Shown piece after piece: positions 8,203 through 49,767 of a DNA stretch of 64,000 nt. The stretch is from assembly GCF_056746865.1 (NCBI RefSeq), contig NZ_CM163382.1; one strand, written 5' to 3'. Made by a program: the position numbers and the translations under genes. How positions within the stretch are numbered: position 1 is the first letter of the stretch; the number at the start of each line of letters is the position of its first letter. Under the pieces are notes generated by a model that was given only the letters and a program-made list of their open reading frames with translations, had not been told where the DNA came from and made no database searches.

Positions 8203-8904
8203 CTACAGTTTCAGAATTTCTTTCACAAACGGAATGGTCAGCTTACGTTGCGCGGTAATCGACGCACGATCCAACTGATCCAACGTCATAAATAACGTGC
8301 GCATTTCTCTGTCGAGCCGCTTCAGCAAGAAACGCCCCACATCTTCCGGCAGTTCAAAACCACGCAAACGCGCGCGTAACTGTAGCGCCTGCAACTTATC
8401 TTCATCAGAAAGTGGCTGCAATTTGTAGATCTGCCCCCAGTCGAGACGCGACGCGAGATCCGGTAATCCAAGATTCAACTGCCGCGGTGGACGATCGCCG
8501 GTGATTAACAACCGTGTTTTGCCCGATTCCAGAATTCGATTGTAGAGATCGAAAATCGCCATCTCCCACAACTCATCGCCTGCAATACACTCAATGTTGT
8601 CGATACAGACCAGCGACAAATGCTCCATACCGTCGAGCACTTCCGGAACAAACCAGGTGCGTTTATCCAGCGGGACATAGCCCACCGCATCGCCACGCTG
8701 CGACAATTCCGCGCAAGCCGCGTGCAGCAGATGGCTGCGCCCCGCGCCTTCGCGTGCCCAGAGATAGATGTAACCGCTATGTTCCTGACGCAGCACGTTT
8801 TGCAGCGCGGCCAGTAAAGAGGAGTTATCCCCCGGCCAGAAACTTGCAAAGGTTTCGTCGTCAGGAAGATAAAGTGGCAAAGAGAGCTGTGCCGGTGTGT
8901 TCAG
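8203..8904 (-). CDS. hda: DnaA-inactivating AAA+ protein Hda
   Basis: DnaA-domain-III-like AAA+ sequence; start placed at the CTG codon (8902-8904) that gives the 233-aa form, and the longer ORF (to 8949) is also possible. Confidence 0.75.
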
Positions 8905-8998
8905 AGATACCTCAACCAGGATTTCACAAAATCGCGAGAAGTTTACCACAGAATCCCATGATGTTTGAACCGGGCAGCAACACTGCCCGGTCGGTACA

Positions 8999-10288
8999 TT
9001 ATTTGTCTGTTATATCCGCGTCTTCTGCGTCCAGCACCACTTCTTCAGGGCGCAGCACACTAATCATTTTGAAGATCAAACTTAAGCCGATACCGACGAT
9101 GGTCGCCAGCGCCATACCTTTCAGCTCCGCCGCGCCGATGTTTACCTTCGCGCCACTGACACCGATGATCAAAATCACGGAAGTCAGGATCAGGTTCTGT
9201 GCTTTGTTGTAATCCACTTTCGATTCGATCAAAACACGAATACCGGAAGCACCGATGACACCATAAAGCAGCAGCGAAACGCCGCCCATCACCGGCAATG
9301 GGATCATCTGGATAGCAGCAGCCAGTTTACCGACGCAGGAAAGCAGGATAGCGAAAATCGTCGCCCCGCCGATAACCCAGGTACTGTAAACACGGGTGAT
9401 CGCCATCACGCCAATGTTTTCCCCGTAGGTGGTGTTTGGCGTGGAGCCAAAGAAGCCGGAGATCACGGTCGACAAGCCGTTAGCAAACATCGAACGGTGC
9501 AGACCTGGATCGCGCAGCAGATCTTTTTTGACGATATTAGCCGTTACCACCAGGTGCCCTACGTGTTCGGCAATAACCACTAACGCCGCTGGCAGAATAG
9601 TCAGAATGGCAAACCACTCGAAGCGCGGCGTATAGAGGGTTGGCAGCGCAAACCAGTGAGCATTAATAATCGGCGTGGTATCGACAATTCCCATTGCGAA
9701 AGAGAGCGCGTAACCCACCAGCACGCCAATTAAAATCGGGATAATTGCCAGGAAACCACGAAACAGCACGGAACCTAAAACCGTGACTGCCAGGGTGGTA
9801 ATGGAGATGATGATGGTTTTGGAGTCTGGCGTTTGCCCTTCAGCCGGGAGTAAACCTGCCATACCGGCAGCTACGCCCGCCAGCTCCAGACCGATGACGG
9901 CAACGATTGCGCCCATTGCCGCAGGTGGAAACAGCACGTCCAGCCAGCCGGTCCCCGCTTTCTTCACGATAAAAGAAACCAGGCAGAACAGCACGCCGCA
10001 CATAATAAAGCCGCCCAGCGCGACTTCATACCCTAACGGCAACAGTAACAATACCGGTGAAATAAAGGCAAAGCTGGAACCAAGATAAGCCGGGATTTTC
10101 CCTTTACAGATGAAGAGATACAGCAGCGTTCCTATACCGTTAAATAACAGTACAGTCGCCGGGTTAATATGAAATAAGACGGGCACCAGGACGGTTGCAC
10201 CAAACATGGCGAACAAATGTTGCAAACTAAGCGGGATTGTCTGTAAAAGTGGCGGTCTTTCACTCACCCCGATAGCACGGCGCGTCAT
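8999..10288 (-). CDS. uraA: uracil:H+ symporter
   Basis: 429 aa from the ATG at 10288; NCS2-family polytopic membrane protein upstream of upp. Confidence 0.85.
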
Positions 10289-10373
10289 AGTATTATCCTC
10301 TGTATTATGTGTTATAGGCGCTTTACTCAAAAAAAAGCCGACTCTTAAAGTCGGCTTTAATTATTTTTATTCT

Positions 10374-11000
10374 TTATTTCGTACCAAAGATTTTGTCACC
10401 GGCATCGCCGAGGCCCGGAATAATGTATCCGTGCTCGTTCAGTCCCTGGTCAATTGATGCAGTATACAGTTCGACGTCCGGGTGCGCTTTTTCCAGCGCT
10501 GCGATACCTTCTGGTGCAGCTACCAGCACCAGAACTTTGATGCTGCTGCAGCCCGCTTTTTTCAGCAGGTCGATGGTCGCGATAACGGAACCACCGGTTG
10601 CCAGCATTGGGTCAACGATCAGCGCCATACGCTCATCGATGTTAGAAACCAGTTTCTGGAAGTACGGTACCGGCTCCAGCGTTTCTTCATTACGGTACAT
10701 ACCGACGACGCTGATGCGCGCGCTCGGAACGTTTTCCAGCACACCGTCCATCATCCCCAGACCCGCACGCAGAATTGGCACAACGGTAATTTTCTTACCT
10801 TTGATCTGGTCGATTTCTACCGGGCCGTTCCAGCCTTCGATAGTTACTTTTTCCGTTTCGAGGTCGGCGGTCGCTTCGTAAGTCAGCAGGCTACCCACTT
10901 CGGAAGCGAGTTCGCGAAAGCGCTTGGTGCTGATATCTTGCTCACGCATCAGTCCCAGCTTGTGTTTGACGAGTGGGTGTTTGACTTCCACGATCTTCAT
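10374..11000 (-). CDS. upp: uracil phosphoribosyltransferase
   Basis: 208 aa beginning [19 protein letters not shown]; PRPP-binding motif [12 protein letters not shown]. Confidence 0.9.
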
Positions 11001-11306
11001 ACTCTTTCTCCTTTGAGGGGCAGCCACAAAAAAAATCGACGGATTATACCTCCTTTCTTCAAGCCGGCAATATTATTTTCGTTGACTTTAGTCAAAATGA
11101 TAACGGTTTGAGATAAAGTTATTTTGTATTCAAATGGTTATGGAAGAAGATTATTCCATCCGAAAACGATCCTTTGCCCTGGTACAAGTATTCTTTCGCC
11201 GCGCGCCTGGGGAAAAGACGTGCAAAAAGGTTGTGTAAAGCAGTCTCGCAAACGTTTGCTTTCCCTGTTAGAATTGCGCCGAATTTTATTTTTCTACCGC
11301 AAGTAA

Positions 11307-21065: not shown

Positions 21066-21164
21066 AAATGCGCTAGACTGGCCCCCTGAATCTCCAGACA
21101 ACCAATATCACTTAAATAAGTGATAGTCTTAATACTAGTTTTTAGACTAGTCATTGGAGAGCAG

Positions 21165-21530
21165 ATGATTGATGTCTTAGGACCGGAGAAACGCAGACGG
21201 CGTACTACACAGGAAAAGATCGCTATTGTTCAGCAGAGTTTTGAACCGGGAATGACGGTCTCCCTTGTTGCCCGGCAACACGGTGTGGCAGCCAGCCAGT
21301 TATTTCTCTGGCGCAAGCAATACCAGGAGGGAAGTCTTACTGCTGTGGCCGCAGGAGAGCAGGTCGTTCCTGCCTCTGAACTTGCTGCTGCCATGAAGCA
21401 GATTAAAGAACTCCAGCGCCTGCTCGGCAAAAAAACGATGGAAAATGAACTCCTTAAAGAAGCCGTTGAATACGGGCGTGCAAAAAAGTGGATAGCGCAC
21501 GCGCCCTTATTGCCCGGGGATGGGGAGTAA
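21165..21530 (+). CDS. insC: IS2 transposase OrfA (InsC)
   Basis: 121 aa beginning [30 protein letters not shown]; HTH protein. Confidence 0.9.
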
Positions 21531-22393
21531 GCTTAGTCAGCCGTTGTCTCCGGGTGTCGCGTGCGCAGTTGCACGTCATTCTCAGACGAACCGATGACTG
21601 GAAAGATGGTCGCCGCAGCCGTCACTCAGATGATACGGATGTGCTTCTCCGTATACACCATGTTATCGGAGAGCTGCCCACGTATGGTTATCGTCGGGTA
21701 TGGGCGCTGCTTCGCAGACAGGCCGAACTTGATGGTATGCCTGCGATCAATGCCAAACGTGTTTACCGGATCATGCGCCAGAATGCGCTGTTGCTTGAGC
21801 GAAAAACCGCTGTACCGCCATCGAAACGGGCACATACTGGCAAAGTGGCCGTGAAAGAAAGCAATCAACGATGGTGCTCTGACGGGTTCGAGTTCCGCTG
21901 TGATAACGGAGAAAAACTGCGAGTCACGTTCGCGCTGGACTGCTGTGACCGTGAGGCACTGCACTGGGCAGTCACTACGGGCGGCTTCGACAGTGAAACA
22001 GTACAGGACGTAATGCTGGGAGCGGTGGAACGCCGCTTCGGCAACGAGCTTCCGGCGTCTCCAGTAGAGTGGCTGACGGATAATGGTTCATGCTACCGGG
22101 CTAATGAAACACGGCAGTTTGCCCGGATGTTGGGGCTTGAACCGAAGAACACGGCGGTGCGGAGTCCGGAGAGTAACGGCATAGCAGAGAGCTTCGTGAA
22201 AACGATAAAGCGTGACTACATCAGTATCATGCCTAAACCAGACGGGTTAACGGCAGCAAAGAACCTTGCAGAGGCGTTCGAGCATTATAACGAATGGCAT
22301 CCGCATAGTGCACTGGGTTATCGCTCGCCACGGGAATATCTACGGCAGCGGGCCAGTAATGGGTTAAGTGATAACAGGTGTCTGGAAATATAG
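21488..22393 (+). CDS. insD: IS2 transposase OrfB (InsD), DDE catalytic domain
   Basis: 301-aa ORF overlapping insC in another frame, as expected for IS3-family frameshifting. Confidence 0.9.
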
Positions 22394-22404
22394 GGGCAAA
22401 TCCA

Positions 22405-23112
22405 TGCGCCTATAAGGCTCTCTTACCAGCCGCGCCCTAACAGGCGCACACGATCTGACATTTGCATCCAACTTCGTTACTTACGGCCCGTAAACGGGCT
22501 GCCCGGATAGGGAATCGATAACTGCTCTCCCATTTTATCCTCTTCAAGCTGGTGCTTTATGTAATCCTGTATCTTCGCCGTGTTCTTACCCACTGTATCG
22601 ACGTAGTACCCTCTGCACCAGAACTCCCTGTTCCTGTATTTGAATTTCAAATCACCAAACTGCTCGTAAAGCATCAGACTGCTTTTCCCTTTCAGATATC
22701 CCATAAACCCGGATACGCTCATTTTAGGCGGGATCTCCACAAGCATATGGATATGATCTGCACAGCATTCAGCTTCCAGAATCCGTACGCTTTTCCACTC
22801 ACACAGCTTTCTCAAAATACTGCCTATTGCTCTACGCTTCTCTCTGTAGAACACCTGTCTTCGGTATTTTGGCGCAAAAACTATGTGATATTTACAGTTC
22901 CATCGGGTGTGCGCTAAGCTCTTTTCGTTCCCCATTGGGACCCCCTTTTGATTTCTTGTTTGACACTTGCAGTTGCCAGACCGCAAGGTGTTTTAACAAA
23001 TCAAAAGGGGTTTTAATAACTGGCTCAAAGCTGAAAGCTTTCCGGAACCCCCAGCCTAGCTGGGGGTTTTCTGTGCACAAAAAACCCTCTGTAGTAACAG
23101 AGGGTTTTGTTC
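22405..23112 (-). mobile_element. IS200-like element (IS200/IS605 family); boundaries approximate
   Basis: About 708 bp containing tnpA with an RBS-sequestering stem (22942-23013) and terminal hairpins near 23040-23108; it is unclear whether the outermost hairpin belongs to the IS or to the host. Confidence 0.55.
22477..22935 (-). CDS. tnpA: IS200/IS605-family transposase TnpA (HUH-type)
   Basis: 152 aa from MGNEKSLAHTRWNCKYHIVFAPKYRR with the HxH motif (DHIHMLVEIPP) and catalytic Tyr region; the ORF track begins at a longer upstream start. Confidence 0.85.
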   Translation of the reverse strand: MGNEKSLAHTRWNCKYHIVFAPKYRRQVFYREKRRAIGSILRKLCEWKSVRILEAECCADHIHMLVEIPPKMSVSGFMGYLKGKSSLMLYEQFGDLKFKYRNREFWCRGYYVDTVGKNTAKIQDYIKHQLEEDKMGEQLSIPYPGSPFTGRK

Positions 23113-23130
23113 ATTCATAGTGCAGGGTCA

Positions 23131-23147
23131 AATCATTCCCACTCAAT
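23131..23147. repeat. attL candidate: 17-bp direct repeat AATCATTCCCACTCAAT
   Basis: Identical to 62451-62467, which overlaps the guaA stop codon. Confidence 0.6.
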
Positions 23148-23234
23148 TGTTTACGACAATCATAACCAATTGAGTGATAACATTTTTCCAAAACTTAATT
23201 TTTCTAGTACCGTTTTATATACCGTCACCGGAAA

Positions 23235-23732
23235 TCAGTGCCACGATTTTTGCTTCTTCAGTGAATCGTATTGCTGTTCGCAGGATTCTCCTGCAATCCG
23301 ATACTTTTCAGCCTCAGCTGCTGTTGCGTTGTAAACTCGATTGCTTTCTTCAAGCATGTCGGCGAGCACACCGATGACCTTGCTGGCTGGCGTGCCAGTG
23401 GGGAAAGATCCGGTATAGTGTTCGGCGAGTCGCTTGGTTTTGTCAAGCTCGGCGCGCAGGCTGTCAGCAGCGGCATTAGCATGCTCAGCATCAACACGCG
23501 CCACATCGATACGGGATTGTGCTTCACGTTCAATTTGTGTTTTCTCCTGATCACGTTGTGACCTGGCCTTATCATCAGCCTGTTTCTGATCTTCCTGTGC
23601 CTGCGCATACCCGGCATCGTACTGGCGACTGCCGTGTATATTCCAGGCAACCACTCCGACGGTAAACAGAGCAGCAAGAATCACCACGATAAGCAGTTGT
23701 TTCCAATATGCTTTTACGAATGCCCAGATCAT
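23235..23732 (-). CDS. Rz-like inner-membrane spanin (i-spanin)
   Basis: 165 aa; N-terminal TM helix followed by a charged coiled coil; immediately downstream of the endolysin. Confidence 0.65.
23258..23506 (-). CDS. Rz1-like outer-membrane lipoprotein spanin (o-spanin), embedded in the +1 frame of Rz
   Basis: ORF wholly inside the Rz gene; lipobox LLTAC and a proline-rich mature region. Confidence 0.55.
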   Translation of the reverse strand: MWRVLMLSMLMPLLTACAPSLTKPSDSPNTIPDLSPLARQPARSSVCSPTCLKKAIEFTTQQQLRLKSIGLQENPANSNTIH

Positions 23733-41840: not shown

Positions 41841-42542
41841 TTATTTGCCATAGAGCACTTCGGCCGCACTACGCTGGCCTTCATTACCACCGGTGACCAT
41901 GCCATCTTCAGACATCGCCTTTCCGATTTTCACGAACGTTTTAACCAGATCAGGGTGATTACCCAGCCCGGTGGTGTTCAGATATTCTTTGAGTTCAGGT
42001 GTCCCGAACTGGTCAAGCGCACGCTGTGCGGCGCTAAGGTTAGAAATCAACTTGTCGCCACCGATTTCTTTGTCAGCTTTTACATCCGCAGCCCACTGCT
42101 CGGTTGTTTTCTGCCAGGCTTCTGCCTGGCGCTGCTGAACACCTGCCAGAATCTTCGGATAAGCATCAACCAGCTTTTGCGCTTGCTCGTTGGTCAGGTT
42201 AAGTTCTCGCGCCACCGGCTCGAATTCCTTCAACGCTTCTGTATCCAGCTCTACGCCTTCGGCAGCCTGAAACTCGTACTTTTCAGGCGCACCCTCAGGT
42301 TTATCGCCGTCCTTTTTTTCATCCTGCTTATCGTTTTCAGGCTTTTTGTCATCAGCAGGTTTATCGCCATCAGCAACAGGTTGTGGCTTATCACCTTCCT
42401 GTTGTGATGGATCACCAACTGGAGCAGGGGTATCACCTGCAGGCGCTGACGGTTCTGACGCAGCCGGAGCTGCTCCACCATCGACTGGTTGCTCATTGCA
42501 AAGACGGCGATACAGCAAACGCTCAAATAAATTCATGATCAC
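41841..42542 (-). CDS. scaffolding protein
   Basis: 233 aa; acidic, Pro/Asp/Lys-rich low-complexity N-terminus and helical C-terminus, between portal and capsid genes. Confidence 0.55.
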   Translation of the reverse strand: MIMNLFERLLYRRLCNEQPVDGGAAPAASEPSAPAGDTPAPVGDPSQQEGDKPQPVADGDKPADDKKPENDKQDEKKDGDKPEGAPEKYEFQAAEGVELDTEALKEFEPVARELNLTNEQAQKLVDAYPKILAGVQQRQAEAWQKTTEQWAADVKADKEIGGDKLISNLSAAQRALDQFGTPELKEYLNTTGLGNHPDLVKTFVKIGKAMSEDGMVTGGNEGQRSAAEVLYGK

Positions 42543-42835
42543 TCCTGTTCACTGGCCTCTTTGGCCATCTTCAAATACTGTTCAGGGCAATGCGCCATAA
42601 CGCGCTGAAACAGTTCCAGCGCCAGATTGCGTTGCCCCTCATTAAATGCCATTGCCATAGCGTCCATCGGCGAGATAGCGGAAAACACACGACCTTTCTC
42701 CAGCACCGACCAGACAACGCGACGCCCCTGTTCACTGCTCATGACAAAGCGAATGTCATCAATTTCACGCTGTGCCATGTCACGTTGCTTACGGGCGTTT
42801 TCTTCTTTCAGTTGATCATCTTCGTAATCTGTCAT
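42539..42835 (-). CDS. hypothetical head-module protein
   Basis: 98 aa overlapping both neighbours. Confidence 0.4.
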   Translation of the reverse strand: MTDYEDDQLKEENARKQRDMAQREIDDIRFVMSSEQGRRVVWSVLEKGRVFSAISPMDAMAMAFNEGQRNLALELFQRVMAHCPEQYLKMAKEASEQE

Positions 42836-44511
42836 TGTGATTGCCCACCCTGACCACTAACTGCATTCGCCATAGCTGACAAAACACTCGGATCAGAAGT
42901 TTTAGCTTCGCTTAGCGTCTTGGCACCCTGTGCCGCCGCCATCCCCATCGCCATCATTTGTTGCTGCTGTTGCTGCTGTGCCCGTTGCTGGCGAGTCTGC
43001 TCAACCTGTTCCTGCGGAACAATGACGGTTGGAGACACTCCGGACATATCAGCGAATGCATCGATCGCCTGATCAACGTTGAGTTTGTCGAGAGCTTCTG
43101 GTTTCGCTTGCGCAAGTTGACCAATGAAGTTGACCGTGGATGCCAGACTGGACAGGCCGATAGACTTCTGCGCCTGAGCCATGACGGAAATGTATTCGAC
43201 CTTCAGGGGCATACCTTCCATCGCGTCAGGCGGTGGCGGCAGCATGTTTTTACGCACCATCATCGAGAAAGCGCGGTCAATGAGAGGATTAAGACATTCG
43301 TCGTTCAGACGCTCCAGAACCGGCCCCAACATCAGAAGTTTTTCTTCTTTCATTTCGATCACCGCTTCAACAGGCATCGAGCGGGTATTGATGTTCTGCA
43401 ACATCATGAACAGATCGACAAAGTAGGCGCTGTTAATGATTTGCCGAGTGTCCTGAATGTCTGCTACCAGATCTGCTGTACTGGGGTTAACCAGATAAGC
43501 AGGCCTGAAACCATCCTGACCAGTAATCTGATCGATATACGTGATGTCGCCAGGAAGAAGGGAGGCGCGCTGATTCTTGAGGGAAGTCGGAGCAACCATC
43601 GGCGGATTGGTGGCTTTATCAATCAACTGCGACTTGCGCTTCTGGAGAAGCTGCAATGCCTTAACAGGTCCAAGCGCCAGCATACCCGGGCATGATGATC
43701 CATAAACATCTTCGCCGTTAACTTCCCAGCGCGGAGCCATAATTGGAAACTCATCGAATCCGGACTCACGCAACAACTTGTCGTTATCGCCACCAACCTC
43801 GTAATAAACCGATTTGAATGGCTTGTTCTTGCTATCCAGCTTCGATGTATCGCGGTCAATGTTCGGGTAAACCGAATGCATCACTTCAATCCACTTCTCG
43901 TAGGTTCCGCTTTCCCACATGCTTTTTACGGATTCGCTGACGTTATTTAGCCCGAACTCCTGAACAAGCTGACGAACAGTCATAGAGAACTTGCGAAAAC
44001 AGGTGTCCACACTGCCACGAGGTGAGTTAGCCAGGTAGTAACTGCCTATCGGGAATGGCATTGTGCGAATGATGTCCTCGTCATCCTCCAGCACTGCCAT
44101 TGCACCAGTGCTGTATGTGCCGAGGCTTCCGTATAACTGCGGCAGCGACTGATAGAGATTCGACTTATTGAACATATCGTTCATGCGGTTCTGCACCGCC
44201 TCAAGCCACAACTTAACAGGGCCATAATCCATCATTTCAGGATCTGGCGTAGCCAGGCGAAACCACGGACGCGCGGGGCTTGTGATGCCTGACATCATGC
44301 CGCTGGCGAGAGTGCGCGCCGCCATAGTCCCGGTCGAATCAATAATGCGTGTATTGCGTCGATCGTTACGGTTAACCTCAGAAGTCAGAAAGCGGGAACC
44401 ACGCGGGTTGATGTAATCACTCAACTCGCGCCAGTGCGGCTCGAACGACTGACGCTCGCTTTCAAGTTGTGCGAACTGTTTGTTCAATCGCTCTTTAGTT
44501 GTTTCCGCCAT
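42832..44511 (-). CDS. portal (head-to-tail connector) protein, T7 gp8-like
   Basis: 559 aa; Gln/Ala/Met-rich C-terminal tail (QQRAQQQQQQQMMAMGMAAAQG) reminiscent of T7-type portals. Confidence 0.65.
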   Translation of the reverse strand: MAETTKERLNKQFAQLESERQSFEPHWRELSDYINPRGSRFLTSEVNRNDRRNTRIIDSTGTMAARTLASGMMSGITSPARPWFRLATPDPEMMDYGPVKLWLEAVQNRMNDMFNKSNLYQSLPQLYGSLGTYSTGAMAVLEDDEDIIRTMPFPIGSYYLANSPRGSVDTCFRKFSMTVRQLVQEFGLNNVSESVKSMWESGTYEKWIEVMHSVYPNIDRDTSKLDSKNKPFKSVYYEVGGDNDKLLRESGFDEFPIMAPRWEVNGEDVYGSSCPGMLALGPVKALQLLQKRKSQLIDKATNPPMVAPTSLKNQRASLLPGDITYIDQITGQDGFRPAYLVNPSTADLVADIQDTRQIINSAYFVDLFMMLQNINTRSMPVEAVIEMKEEKLLMLGPVLERLNDECLNPLIDRAFSMMVRKNMLPPPPDAMEGMPLKVEYISVMAQAQKSIGLSSLASTVNFIGQLAQAKPEALDKLNVDQAIDAFADMSGVSPTVIVPQEQVEQTRQQRAQQQQQQQMMAMGMAAAQGAKTLSEAKTSDPSVLSAMANAVSGQGGQSQ

Positions 44512-45898: not shown

Positions 45899-47374
45899 TT
45901 AAGCATAGGGATCGTAATCTGTAATGGCCTTGCCTTGCTGGTTCTGCTGACCTGGAATTCGCAGACGCTTCGACACAGGGAAAGCAAACGTCAGCAATAG
46001 CGCATCGCCTTTACCCGGCGAACGCCCAAGACGCTCTTTGATATCTTCCTTCGGTTCGATAACGATTTTACCGTCCACGCGAACTTTGTACTCTGCCGCC
46101 GACAGGTCGTCCGCTGTTTCCTGGTCATCCAGCATGCCGCCCAGCCTCAGCCATGTCTTACATGAGTTGAACATCTCCCCACGCTTGTTAAGCATCTGCG
46201 GGTCAGTGGACGCACCGCCGAACGGAACAAGTTGCCATGTACGCCCCCAGCCATCACCGATTGACTTCAAACCGGTTCCGTAACCGAAGTCGATGAACAC
46301 TGCGTCAGCCTGGTACTGGTCTTCAAAGTCAGCGATACGCTTCGCCATAATCAGATCGTCAGTGGTCTTGTTGCCAGTCCACAGCACCTTACTGTGCAGC
46401 CCCTGCCGCAGGTATATCACAGCGTCATCAACGCCGGAGTATGCCGGGTCAACGCCGATTATCACCGGAGCATGTGCAACCTGCGCAGCGGTTACCACCC
46501 GTTTCATTGCCTCGTCAGTAAGACCGGTAGGGATAAACTGCAATTCAGATGCATCAGGGAATATGCCACGCACACGGATTTTAACGAAGTCGCTGTCTTC
46601 CCCGTAGTCATCAACCCATTTCTGCAACTGCTGTTTGTTAGTGCCTTCCACCGTCCGGCTGTCAATCTGCGCAGTTTTCCAGCGGTGTTTATATTTGCGG
46701 AAACATTCGCGAAAACGCCCGGTGTTACGTGTAGGGTTTCCGAACGCCACCCAAATAATCTCAGTGTCTTCGTCCGTAAGCGCACCCTCGGCAACTTCCC
46801 ACACCAGATCCGCAATGTTCGACGCTTCATCAAACACCACGATGATGCGTTTGCGCTCGTTGTGTAGTCCGGCGAATGCCTCAGTGTTGTGCTCAGACCA
46901 GGGTATTGCGTCAGCCCGCCACCGCTTGTCGTGCCCAGGGTCATTGCTGTACATCGCGGTAGCGGTACAGGTAAACCAGTCTTTCGTGATAGCAAGGTTC
47001 GACCACTTGATAATTTCCGGCCAGGTCTTCGTTCGTAGCTGGTTGTCGGTGTTGGCGGTCACCACGACCTTACAATCCTCGCAAGTGGACATGCCCCAGT
47101 TGATGAGCATTGAGATGAATGCGGATTTACCAATACCGTGACCAGAAGCACGTGCCAGCATAAGCGGCTGATAACGCGTCTCTGGATTCTGCAGGTGATC
47201 ACGTATCTCTCGGAACGCATCGGCCTGCCACTGACGTGGACCGGTAGCATGTGCCAGTTCAGTCCCCTCTTCCCCCCAAGGGAACGCATAGAGGGCATAG
47301 CCAAGCGGATCGTGAGTGAACCCTGCAATATCTTCGATTAACTGCTCTTCAGGAGATAACGCTGCATCTGTCAC
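45899..47374 (-). CDS. terminase large subunit
   Basis: 491 aa; Walker A-like motif (ASGHGIGKS), ATPase and nuclease acidic motifs; overlaps the small-subunit gene. Confidence 0.8.
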   Translation of the reverse strand: MTDAALSPEEQLIEDIAGFTHDPLGYALYAFPWGEEGTELAHATGPRQWQADAFREIRDHLQNPETRYQPLMLARASGHGIGKSAFISMLINWGMSTCEDCKVVVTANTDNQLRTKTWPEIIKWSNLAITKDWFTCTATAMYSNDPGHDKRWRADAIPWSEHNTEAFAGLHNERKRIIVVFDEASNIADLVWEVAEGALTDEDTEIIWVAFGNPTRNTGRFRECFRKYKHRWKTAQIDSRTVEGTNKQQLQKWVDDYGEDSDFVKIRVRGIFPDASELQFIPTGLTDEAMKRVVTAAQVAHAPVIIGVDPAYSGVDDAVIYLRQGLHSKVLWTGNKTTDDLIMAKRIADFEDQYQADAVFIDFGYGTGLKSIGDGWGRTWQLVPFGGASTDPQMLNKRGEMFNSCKTWLRLGGMLDDQETADDLSAAEYKVRVDGKIVIEPKEDIKERLGRSPGKGDALLLTFAFPVSKRLRIPGQQNQQGKAITDYDPYA

Positions 47375-47967
47375 TGATTACCATCCTGACGTTCTTTGAG
47401 TCGCTTCCTGGCTGCCGCTATGCGATCAGCAATTGTCACATTCACATTAACATCCAGTCGTTCTTTGAATGCGTTGACGTCGACGTGCTTACCAATCAGT
47501 TCGAGGTTCTTCACCTTGTCAGGCCATTTAATTTTTTTGAGGATTGTCTCTATCGAATCCTCGTTCATGTTCATGATGGTCGATGACAGATCAAAGCCGC
47601 TAAGCGTAGTGCGCCAGATTTTCGGCCACTCGCGGATTGGCTTAAGGCTCCCATCGTCGTTGAGGATATCAATCACGTCCATCTGGTCGATCTCCACCAG
47701 GCGCATGAGAACGTAATCAGCACTGACGCGCATTCGTTTGTTGCGCTCCTCCATCAACTCGGCAATCCGTTTCTGAATGCGTTCATCGCGCATCATGACA
47801 CTGGCTTTAACTGCCGCTGTATTTGGGGAGAATCCTGCATTAATCGCAGCCTGAGTCTGGTTTTCAGGCGTTTTGATGTATGACTGGCAATAAGCCTCCT
47901 GCATTGCTGTTAGTGGCTTAAATTGCGTTGATTTGCGTTTATAGGCTTTAGGTTCAGCAGGCATCAT
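47371..47967 (-). CDS. terminase small subunit
   Basis: About 198 aa from the ATG at 47967 (the ORF track extends to 48045 through a repeat-encoded TITTTVTITT segment); basic N-terminal DNA-binding region. Confidence 0.65.
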   Translation of the reverse strand: MMPAEPKAYKRKSTQFKPLTAMQEAYCQSYIKTPENQTQAAINAGFSPNTAAVKASVMMRDERIQKRIAELMEERNKRMRVSADYVLMRLVEIDQMDVIDILNDDGSLKPIREWPKIWRTTLSGFDLSSTIMNMNEDSIETILKKIKWPDKVKNLELIGKHVDVNAFKERLDVNVNVTIADRIAAARKRLKERQDGNQ

Positions 47968-48041
47968 AACCACCGTGGTAATAGTTACCGTTGTGGTAAT
48001 AGTAACATGCAAAATAAAGCCGCCATAGTTGGCGGCAGTAT

Positions 48042-48254
48042 TCAAAGTCCATCAAATTCATCGTAAAAACTCTCGTCAAGATACCCTTCCCATTTACCGC
48101 GAATGAAAATTACATCCTCGCCGCAAGGGTGCTGACTGTCGATAACTATATCCCTCCTGGCGCAACCATACTTATGCATGAGAAATTTAACCTCTTTCGG
48201 AAAATTTGCTGAGTTATCTCTCATATCTTCAAGGTCGTAGCGTATTTTTGGCAT
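48042..48254 (-). CDS. hypothetical small protein
   Basis: 70 aa from MPKIRYDLEDM, with AAGGTG 5 nt upstream. Confidence 0.45.
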   Translation of the reverse strand: MPKIRYDLEDMRDNSANFPKEVKFLMHKYGCARRDIVIDSQHPCGEDVIFIRGKWEGYLDESFYDEFDGL

Positions 48255-48271
48255 AACACCTTCGTGACATG

Positions 48272-48613
48272 TCACACTATTAATTTCGTTTCATGCCAGC
48301 CTTTAGTCACCCAGCATTGTGAGTCACCATTACACGGACATGAATTAACTGGAACTCTCTCGCCGCACTTACCGCAACGTTTTCTACTGATCGATTTTAT
48401 ACGCCCGCGCACGCGTGCATCATCCTGGCGGATCAGTAACGCTATATACTCACCAAATTCGTAAGGCGCACGCCCGGGGCGACGCGCGGCACAGTTACGC
48501 TCAAGCATTTCAATTTCCTGAGCATCAAGCACAATCTCCAGCTTACGTACACCGGATGCAGCTTGTCTGGCTCTCTGAGCGGCTTTGCGCTCTGCTGCTG
48601 ATTTAGCCATCAA
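48272..48613 (-). CDS. hypothetical protein with C-terminal Cys-rich zinc-ribbon-like motif
   Basis: 113 aa; basic N-terminus and CGKCGERVPVNSCPCNGDSQC. Confidence 0.45.
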   Translation of the reverse strand: MMAKSAAERKAAQRARQAASGVRKLEIVLDAQEIEMLERNCAARRPGRAPYEFGEYIALLIRQDDARVRGRIKSISRKRCGKCGERVPVNSCPCNGDSQCWVTKGWHETKLIV

Positions 48614-48884
48614 TATTCACCTTTATCGCGTAAACCTTTACCGGTTTATCTCCGAAGTGCGGATGTGTGATTGTCTTGATTTCATATCCGTCATACGGGA
48701 CGTCAATTCTACGACTGGAGTCGTCGCGCTTCGGATATCCCTTTGTGATAATCAGTCGGTCATAATCCCTGAACATAATTCGCTTATTCCAGTAGTCATT
48801 ACACAGGCGATACTCTTCCGTTTTCTCTCCGCGAATCATGGCATCGAAGTATTCACCTTTGACGGCAAGTTGCAGGTTAGCCAC
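48603..48884 (-). CDS. ASCH/PUA-like small protein
   Basis: 93 aa; LAVKGEYFDAMIRGEKTEEYRL matches the N-terminal signature of ASCH-domain proteins. Confidence 0.5.
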   Translation of the reverse strand: MANLQLAVKGEYFDAMIRGEKTEEYRLCNDYWNKRIMFRDYDRLIITKGYPKRDDSSRRIDVPYDGYEIKTITHPHFGDKPVKVYAIKVNIDG

Positions 48885-49767
48885 GGTTAACCTCCTTCGG
48901 CGGTTCTGGTAGAGGCATCCAGTACAAGGCGTTCCCTAACCACGATAAAGTGCCGTCGCTCAACTCCACGTATTCCCCTTGTACCTGTCCTGCCATATAC
49001 TCGCCGTGCTTTGAATAAATTAAAATCCAATCATCTTGAGCGGGCATTCGCTCACTACAGCTTATCCAACTATCCGGAGTTACCGGATAGTTGCCAGCCA
49101 GTCTACGCAAAACAGCCTTAACAGCCTCAATACGGTCATCATCGCAATTTTCCAGCGTATCTATGCGGTCGAGCATGATGATGGCGTTATCAATATCAGG
49201 ATTGCCAGTCCACTCATTATCGCGATTGGATTCGGCAGCCTGGTTGCCAGATGCTGGCTGATTGTCGGCTTGGCTATAGCTAACAGCACGGCAGGCATCC
49301 TCTACGCCTTTAACTGCATCTGCACAGTAGTTATAGCGATTGCATTCCACTAACTTCTGCTTGAGATTTTCAATTGCTTGCGCGACATCAGCCTGTATTG
49401 GCGGAACGGCTGTTTGCTCTCGAACGTCATTAGTCGCTATCGGTTCTGCTGCCAACTGACTGGCATATTTGTTAATGGTAACGATAAGCTCTTGCTCGGC
49501 CTCATCCAGACAATCACCGATACCTCGCCTGTCACCGTCAAAATCATCGAAATCGGCACGAATCCTGGCAACCTCCCGGATTGCGGACAACACTTCACCA
49601 GGAATAAGCGGAGAGTTGCCCGATAGTACATTCTGCTCCAGCGATGCCAGAGCAATTCGTGCCAGTTCTTCCGCTTCTTCTGCTGGCAGTACAACGTTGC
49701 TACCAGGTCCGTATGTTTCGCGCCACTGCTTGATTGTCAGTAGTCGCTCTTTGGTAATAGTGATCAT
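48877..49767 (-). CDS. hypothetical phage protein with DUF551-like C-terminus
   Basis: 296 aa; C-terminal W..SERMP...YWMPLPEPP pattern. Confidence 0.45.
   Translation of the reverse strand: MITITKERLLTIKQWRETYGPGSNVVLPAEEAEELARIALASLEQNVLSGNSPLIPGEVLSAIREVARIRADFDDFDGDRRGIGDCLDEAEQELIVTINKYASQLAAEPIATNDVREQTAVPPIQADVAQAIENLKQKLVECNRYNYCADAVKGVEDACRAVSYSQADNQPASGNQAAESNRDNEWTGNPDIDNAIIMLDRIDTLENCDDDRIEAVKAVLRRLAGNYPVTPDSWISCSERMPAQDDWILIYSKHGEYMAGQVQGEYVELSDGTLSWLGNALYWMPLPEPPKEVNRG

What the first reader, a model, noticed from the sequence alone, without database searches (positions are those of the whole stretch)
8902..8904. hda appears to use a non-ATG (CTG) start codon
The conserved Hda sequence begins within a longer ORF. 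The position that gives the 233-aa protein is a CTG codon, in line with what I recall for E. coli hda. This is a host detail that automated annotation can miscall.
Basis: partly seen in the sequence, partly recalled or inferred. Interest (0 to 1): 0.15.

Follow-up and report, generated by a model that had tools for sequence, protein, structure and literature searches.

The report
hda's known CTG start codon
The E. coli gene hda, which switches off the replication initiator DnaA, does begin at the rare start codon CTG at this position, and this is already published and correctly annotated in reference genomes.

Summary
The window is E. coli chromosome, and hda lies on the minus strand. Its 16th codon, at 8904..8902, is CTG and gives the 233-aa protein.

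RefSeq puts the hda start exactly on this CTG in K-12 MG1655 (b2496, 702 nt) and in four other genomes I checked (WP_001307333.1). [quoted passage not shown] 2008).

My own sequence evidence agrees:
- A perfect GAGGT Shine-Dalgarno sits 4 nt upstream of the CTG.
- The codon is CTG in 86 of 86 Enterobacterales species. All 36 other conserved Leu codons in the gene vary synonymously.
- 46 of 80 Enterobacteriaceae have no in-frame ATG/GTG/TTG upstream of the CTG before a stop.
- No species has a canonical start between the CTG and the essential N-terminal clamp-binding motif QLSLPL.
- The upstream GTG lies inside a conserved extended −10-like element (TGnTAAACT), so it is probably promoter DNA rather than coding sequence.

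Ab initio gene callers still produce 248-, 241-, 238- and 235-aa versions. Interest is low.

The parts
8203..8904 (-). hda coding sequence as used in vivo (233 codons plus the stop at 8205..8203)
   Evidence: RefSeq CDS WP_001307333.1 sits at exactly these coordinates. It scores 476.6 bits against NCBIfam NF005982, cut-off 268. It is 100% identical to PDB 5X06 chain E residues 21-253.
8902..8904 (-). CTG initiation codon of hda
   Evidence: Read directly from the sequence. It is the annotated start. It is CTG in 86/86 species and is the only codon-invariant Leu column of 37.
8909..8913 (-). Shine-Dalgarno GAGGT, 4 nt upstream of the CTG
   Evidence: Read from the sequence. It is present in 80/80 Enterobacteriaceae, and as GAGGTG in 6/6 species of other Enterobacterales families. 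These columns are at least 95% identical in the 87-sequence alignment.
8872..8889 (-). Codons 6-11, QLSLPL, the N-terminal beta-clamp-binding motif that any real start must precede
   Evidence: Translation. In distant homologues the Q-L-x-L motif sits mostly 1-8 residues from the predicted N-terminus, mode 3. The 233-aa form fits this pattern and the 248-aa form does not.
8947..8949 (-). GTG that opens the longest ORF (248 aa). This is the formerly annotated start and is probably not used.
   Evidence: An in-frame start at this position exists in only 7 of 80 Enterobacteriaceae, and the upstream reading frame is broken by indels or stops in the others. The GTG overlaps the TG of the conserved extended -10-like element.
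8940..8948 (-). Putative extended -10 promoter element TGgTAAACT (inferred)
   Evidence: Positions 8948, 8947, 8945, 8944 and 8942-8940 are at least 95% identical across 87 sequences, while the surrounding bases vary and show no triplet periodicity. Outgroup families show the same motif. The consensus promoter scan did not report it.
8964..8969 (-). Putative -35-like TTCAAA, 18 nt upstream of the -10 (weak inference)
   Evidence: TTC at 8969..8967 is at least 95% conserved. The match to TTGACA is only 4/6, and the scan found nothing.
8970..8990 (-). Conserved GC-rich hairpin after the uraA stop (9001..8999), probably the uraA terminator and the upstream boundary of the hda unit
   Evidence: MFE is -21 kcal/mol, z = -4.6, with 0/200 shuffles folding as well. 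The stem is kept with compensatory changes in other genera. There is no T-run, so the terminator scan reports none.

Best explanation
hda is translated from the CUG codon at window 8904..8902 (minus strand). The 30S subunit is positioned by the GAGGU Shine-Dalgarno 4 nt upstream, and initiator tRNA reads CUG as a near-cognate of AUG, so the protein starts with Met and is 233 aa long. This puts the clamp-binding motif QLSLPL at residues 6-11, at the extreme N-terminus as in other Hda proteins. Because CUG initiates poorly, it probably keeps Hda scarce. The codon is held as CTG, and never becomes TTG, GTG or ATG, across the whole order, which argues that the weakness itself is selected. The GTG at 8949 that opens the 248-aa ORF is not the start. 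It appears to lie in the promoter's extended -10 element, upstream of the likely transcription start. What is shown here: the anatomy, the annotation, the conservation and the literature statement. What is inferred: the promoter assignment and the dosage-limiting role.
For: Sequence: an in-frame CTG with GAGGT 4 nt upstream.

Annotation: RefSeq places the hda start on this CTG in strain 118UI, K-12 MG1655, O157:H7 PV15-279, A4 and GPEC1189.

[quoted passage not shown] 2008, J Biol Chem 283:36118.

Structure: the crystallised E. coli Hda (5X06) begins [11 protein letters not shown] after its tag.

Comparative evidence:
- CTG in 80/80 Enterobacteriaceae and in 6/6 species of Yersiniaceae, Erwiniaceae, Morganellaceae, Pectobacteriaceae and Hafniaceae.
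- It is the only one of 37 conserved Leu columns with a single codon; the other 36 use 3-6 synonymous codons, TTG included.
- 46/80 species have no in-frame ATG/GTG/TTG between the nearest upstream stop and the CTG, and in 27 of them the stop is only 7 codons upstream. In 0/80 is there a canonical start between the CTG and Q6.
- Upstream conservation is block-like (SD, TGnTAAACT) with no codon periodicity. Downstream conservation has the two-conserved, one-variable pattern of coding sequence.
- The SD-CTG 28-30-mer is exact in 5422/5426 E. coli genomes.

The initiation region is not more structured than shuffled sequence (z = +1.1).
Against: I could not read the primary experimental paper, so the experimental basis rests on EcoGene's citation and on my recollection of the abstract. 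Nothing here measures the protein's N-terminus or ribosome occupancy. A weak GGGA lies 4 nt before the GTG at 8949, and read-through from uraA could put that GTG on an mRNA, so a minor 248-aa product is not excluded. The promoter call failed the tool's consensus threshold, and I found no transcription-start data.
Confidence: 0.93

Rival explanations
1. Translation starts at the GTG at 8949..8947, giving the originally annotated 248-aa Hda. The CTG is then just an internal Leu codon.
For: It is the first canonical start of the longest ORF. A GGGA lies 4 nt upstream. Ab initio gene callers choose it: P0002, 248 aa, has 3510 member sequences.
Against: EcoGene and Su'etsugu 2008 report CTG, and RefSeq and the PDB construct use the short form. 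An in-frame start at this position exists in only 7/80 Enterobacteriaceae, and 46/80 have no canonical upstream start at all. The 15 extra codons show indels and no coding periodicity. An internal Leu codon would not be frozen as CTG in 86/86 species when 36 other Leu columns all vary. This start would move the clamp motif to residue 21, unlike the rest of the family.
Confidence: 0.03
2. Dual initiation. CUG gives the major 233-aa Hda, and a minor N-terminally extended isoform comes from GTG 8949 on uraA read-through transcripts.
For: The uraA-hda hairpin lacks a T-run, so some read-through is plausible. The frame is open from 8949 in E. coli.
Against: The extension is not conserved even within Escherichia and close relatives. 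L004 (an E. coli strain with a 1-nt insertion) and Salmonella L005 have an in-frame stop 14 codons upstream. So any such isoform has no conserved function.
Confidence: 0.04
3. Initiation at the first downstream canonical codon, TTG at codon 9 (8880..8878).
For: TTG is a canonical start and is present in 42/80 Enterobacteriaceae.
Against: In 39 of the 86 Enterobacterales species this codon is CTG and in 3 it is TTA. It lies inside QLSLPL, so starting there would destroy the clamp-binding motif. No SD precedes it.
Confidence: 0.005

Closest known systems
E. coli K-12 hda (b2496, NP_416991.2; Su'etsugu et al. 2008, J Biol Chem 283:36118)
   Same: It is the same gene. The locus matches the E. coli chromosome (100% identical to strain 118UI). 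The CDS has the same length (702 nt), the same CTG start and the same uraA-hda-arsC/yfgD-bepA neighbourhood.
   Different: Nothing relevant. The window comes from a strain with a prophage about 12 kb away, which has no bearing on hda.
yfjD, the second confirmed CTG-initiated E. coli K-12 gene (EcoGene 3.0)
   Same: It also has a rare CTG start, recognised from sequence conservation and a ribosome-binding site and confirmed by start-codon mutagenesis.
   Different: It is an unrelated gene and is not in this window.
Hda of other Enterobacterales annotated as 235 aa (M-L/I-L-N-T-P-A-Q...)
   Same: They carry the same tGAGGTG-CTT-CTG-AAy block with the CTG conserved.
   Different: In these species the base after GAGGT is G, which creates an in-frame GTG inside the Shine-Dalgarno itself. 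Gene callers and part of RefSeq take that GTG as the start. NCBIfam NF005982 also starts two residues before the CTG. Which codon is used there has not been tested.
infC (AUU start) and other weak-start regulatory genes of E. coli
   Same: A non-canonical, inefficient initiation codon is kept by selection to limit or regulate the amount of protein (established knowledge).
   Different: infC's AUU is sensed by IF3 in an autoregulatory loop. No such feedback is known or shown for hda.

Membership tests
Hda, DnaA regulatory inactivator (NCBIfam NF005982 / TIGR03420) | Scores above the curated cut-off of the equivalog models | tested here: met
   NF005982 scores 476.6 bits against a cut-off of 268. 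TIGR03420 scores 281.4 against 194.8.
Hda, DnaA regulatory inactivator (NCBIfam NF005982 / TIGR03420) | N-terminal beta-clamp-binding motif QL[SP]LPL close to the N-terminus | tested here: met
   QLSLPL occupies residues 6-11 of the CTG-initiated protein. In distant relatives the motif starts mostly 1-8 residues after the predicted start.
Hda, DnaA regulatory inactivator (NCBIfam NF005982 / TIGR03420) | AAA+ domain homologous to DnaA domain III plus the Hda lid, and identity to a solved Hda structure | tested here: met
   Homologues carry PF00308 and PF22688. The protein is 100% identical to 5X06 chain E, 'DnaA regulatory inactivator Hda'.
Hda, DnaA regulatory inactivator (NCBIfam NF005982 / TIGR03420) | Stimulates DnaA-ATP hydrolysis with the DNA-loaded clamp (RIDA activity) | not testable with these tools
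   This is a biochemical property. It is accepted for the identical E. coli protein from the literature.
Bacterial genes initiated at CUG | In-frame CTG preceded by a Shine-Dalgarno at functional spacing | tested here: met
   GAGGT at 8913..8909, a 4-nt spacer, and CTG at 8904..8902. This is conserved in 86/86 species.
Bacterial genes initiated at CUG | No conserved canonical alternative start that would still yield the conserved protein | tested here: met
   46/80 species have no upstream in-frame ATG/GTG/TTG. 0/80 have one between the CTG and Q6.
Bacterial genes initiated at CUG | Nucleotide-level constraint on the codon beyond what the amino acid requires | tested here: met
   It is the only codon-invariant column among 37 conserved Leu columns, and one of two among 181 conserved degenerate columns.
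Bacterial genes initiated at CUG | Direct experimental proof: the protein's N-terminus or start-codon mutagenesis | not testable with these tools
   EcoGene 3.0 reports that Su'etsugu et al. 2008 showed this. The primary paper is not held in the library.

The most novel reading that the evidence does not exclude
The CUG start is not an E. coli quirk. It is an order-wide trait under purifying selection for weakness: 86/86 Enterobacterales species from six families keep CTG, although the single C-to-T change to TTG would be neutral at an internal Leu and would only strengthen a start. A corollary is that the 235-aa Hda annotations common outside Enterobacteriaceae are probably two codons too long. 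These use a GTG that is part of the Shine-Dalgarno GAGGTG, and the NCBIfam NF005982 profile mirrors them. Three relatives outside the order also use a non-ATG (GTG) start, which hints that weak initiation of hda is a general way of limiting its dose.
Probability: 0.55. Interest if true: 0.25.

Novelty: already known. Interest (0 to 1): 0.08.

Why it matters
The matter is settled for E. coli, so little rides on it. The CTG start defines the true N-terminus of Hda, which places the clamp-binding motif at the very end of the protein. By my recollection of the 2008 paper, constructs made with the wrong start behaved poorly. The practical value is for annotation. Ab initio gene callers cannot call CTG, so they systematically lengthen or shorten Hda. 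The comparative data here suggest that the same CTG start applies across Enterobacterales, where many records still carry a 235-aa version.

Tried and rejected
1. I tried to read the primary paper (PMC2662290 / doi 10.1074/jbc.M803158200). It is not held.
2. Several full-text searches for further statements on the hda CUG start, the hda promoter or hda mRNA returned only EcoGene 3.0 and irrelevant papers, mostly on HDAC or Caulobacter dnaA. 'The DnaA Tale' and the 2017 Hda-clamp structure paper do not discuss the start codon.
3. The consensus promoter/terminator scan of 8800-9100 found nothing. The promoter proposal therefore rests on conservation only.
4. I looked for an RNA structure around the start that might explain or regulate CUG use. 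The fold is no more stable than shuffles (z = +1.1), so I dropped that idea.
5. I considered ATG 8959..8957 as 'the upstream ATG'. It is out of frame, so I rejected it.
6. One outgroup look-up (Edwardsiella, P0043) found no contig.

Full report
**What is at the coordinates**

The window is E. coli chromosome. A 901-nt query around the site matches 5425 of 5426 complete E. coli genomes, and strain 118UI at 100%. hda is on the minus strand.
- Plus-strand 8902-8904 reads CAG, which is CTG on the minus strand at 8904..8902.
- The longest ORF runs 8949..8203 (248 aa).
- The nearest ATG (8959..8957) is out of frame.
- The CTG is codon 16 of that ORF. Starting there gives 233 aa, (M)[18 protein letters not shown]....

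**What annotation and literature say**

RefSeq annotates hda as 8203..8904(-) in the collinear record NZ_CP032515.1 (protein WP_001307333.1). It is a 702-nt CDS in K-12 MG1655 (b2496, NP_416991.2). Three further genomes sampled across the ranking also start the CDS on the CTG.

[quoted passage not shown] 2008, J Biol Chem 283:36118. The library does not hold that primary paper. From my own memory, its abstract says that hda translation uses CUG downstream of the annotated codon, that CUG may restrict Hda to roughly 100 molecules per cell, and that Hda made from the correct start is highly active. The crystallised E. coli Hda (PDB 5X06) begins [11 protein letters not shown] after its tag.

The finding is therefore already known and already curated.

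**Independent sequence evidence**

1. *Ribosome-binding site.* GAGGT (8913..8909) pairs perfectly with the anti-Shine-Dalgarno and lies 4 nt before the CTG. The region is no more structured than shuffled sequence (z = +1.1).

2. *Conservation of the codon.* I examined 80 Enterobacteriaceae species loci and six species from Yersiniaceae, Erwiniaceae, Morganellaceae, Pectobacteriaceae and Hafniaceae.
   - The homologous codon is CTG in 86/86 species. GAGGT is always 4 nt upstream.
   - hda has 37 conserved Leu columns. Only this one uses a single codon. The other 36 use 3-6 synonymous codons, and TTG is frequent among them.
   - Of 181 conserved degenerate columns, only this one and Pro-4 are codon-invariant.
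   - An ordinary Leu codon would not behave this way. A start codon selected to stay specifically CUG would.

3. *No alternative start.*
   - 46/80 Enterobacteriaceae have no in-frame ATG/GTG/TTG between the nearest upstream stop and the CTG. In 27 of the 80 species the stop is only 7 codons upstream.
   - Where upstream candidates exist, they sit at inconsistent positions (-4, -5, -8, -9, -15, -16, -24...), because the region carries indels that are not multiples of three.
   - No species has a canonical start between the CTG and Gln-6. Any start further downstream would delete the QLSLPL clamp-binding motif.

4. *Family architecture.* In 150 distant representatives the Q-L-x-L motif lies mostly 1-8 residues from the predicted N-terminus, with a mode of 3. 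The 233-aa form fits this pattern and the 248-aa form does not.

5. *Population level.* The 28-30-nt SD-CTG block is exact in 5422/5426 complete E. coli genomes.

**The upstream GTG is probably promoter, not coding**

An 87-sequence alignment of -100..+60 shows discrete conserved blocks upstream of the CTG: GAGGT, and TG-TA-ACT at 8948..8940. These blocks have no triplet periodicity. Downstream, the pattern switches to two conserved bases and one variable base.

TGgTAAACT looks like an extended -10 element. It recurs in the outgroup families as TGTGnTA(A/G)(A/G)CT-like sequences. The GTG at 8949..8947 overlaps its TG. If this element is the hda promoter, transcription would start near 8934-8931 and the GTG would not be on the hda mRNA.

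This is inference. The consensus scan did not report a promoter, and I found no transcription-start data. Just upstream lies a stable hairpin (8990..8970; -21 kcal/mol, z = -4.6). It is conserved with compensatory changes and follows the uraA stop. It is probably the uraA terminator, although it has no T-run.

**Miscalls by automated annotation**

The protein collection holds the 248-aa GTG version (P0002; 3510 member sequences from non-NCBI pipelines). Relatives appear as 235-, 238-, 241-, 244-, 248-, 258-aa and truncated 221/225-aa versions.

Outside Enterobacteriaceae the block reads tGAG GTG CTT CTG AAy. The GTG taken as the start in the common 235-aa annotation is part of the Shine-Dalgarno itself. 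RefSeq carries both 233- and 235-aa versions for the same species, for example Hafnia paralvei and Izhakiella australiensis. NCBIfam NF005982 begins two residues before the CTG.

Three relatives outside the order (64%, 52% and 46% identity) start with GTG directly after an in-frame stop. The CTG therefore appears to be confined to Enterobacterales. Non-ATG starts may be a wider habit of hda, but n = 3 is anecdotal.

**Mechanism and verdict**

Best explanation (confidence about 0.93): SD-directed initiation at CUG by initiator tRNA gives the 233-aa Hda, with its clamp-binding motif at the N-terminus. The inefficient codon probably keeps Hda scarce. That no species has shifted to TTG, GTG or ATG supports selection for weakness, but this is an inference.

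Rivals are weak:
- Initiation at GTG 8949 as the main start: about 0.03.
- A minor extended isoform from uraA read-through: about 0.04.
- Initiation at TTG codon 9: under 0.01.

Novelty: already known. The only mildly new points are the order-wide invariance of the CTG and the likely two-codon over-extension of many 235-aa Hda annotations. Interest is low.

Noticed in passing
window 8970-8990 (minus strand), between the uraA stop at 9001..8999 and hda: A stable GC-rich hairpin (ccgggcag-tgttg-ctgcccgg; -21 kcal/mol, z = -4.6) is conserved across Enterobacteriaceae with compensatory stem changes, but no T-run follows it. It is probably the uraA terminator. Its 3' flank TTC doubles as the -35-like part of the putative hda promoter.
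   Followed up: partly
window 8940-8948 (minus strand): The conserved TGnTAAACT extended -10-like element overlaps the GTG of the 248-aa ORF. It is conserved in all 86 Enterobacterales loci examined. The consensus promoter scan does not report it, and I found no transcription-start data.
   Followed up: partly
L083-L088 (Yersinia, Erwinia, Proteus, Dickeya, Xenorhabdus, Hafnia), locus positions 598-609: Outside Enterobacteriaceae the start region reads GAG GTG CTT CTG. The widely annotated 235-aa Hda starts at a GTG that is part of the Shine-Dalgarno. RefSeq holds both 233- and 235-aa versions for the same species, and the NCBIfam NF005982 profile starts two residues before the CTG.
   Followed up: partly
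L089-L091 (Hda relatives outside Enterobacterales, 46-64% identity): All three start with GTG immediately after an in-frame stop. In one of them the GTG overlaps the stop of the upstream DUF2066 gene. This hints that weak non-ATG starts are common for hda beyond the CTG clade.
   Followed up: no
window about 21141-64000: By RefSeq annotation of the collinear record NZ_CP032515.1, this stretch holds an IS200C transposase (21141-21599) followed by a prophage. Annotated features include lysis genes (21899-23711), a T7 gp14-family core protein, a Bbp16-family cement protein, the major capsid (42273-43259), portal, terminase (47335-49481) and a tRNA-Arg (46593-46669). The prophage is inserted after yfgI.
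   Followed up: no
window 8999-10330 and 10374-11027 (minus strand): The longest-ORF starts of uraA (TTG at 10330) and upp (GTG at 11027) lie upstream of the RefSeq starts (10288 and 11000). These are ordinary ORF over-extensions and are not unusual.
   Followed up: no
window 8893-8895 (minus strand), hda codon 4: Pro-4 (CCG) is the only other codon-invariant column among the 181 conserved degenerate columns of hda across 86 species. It may be part of the nucleotide context of the initiation region.
   Followed up: no
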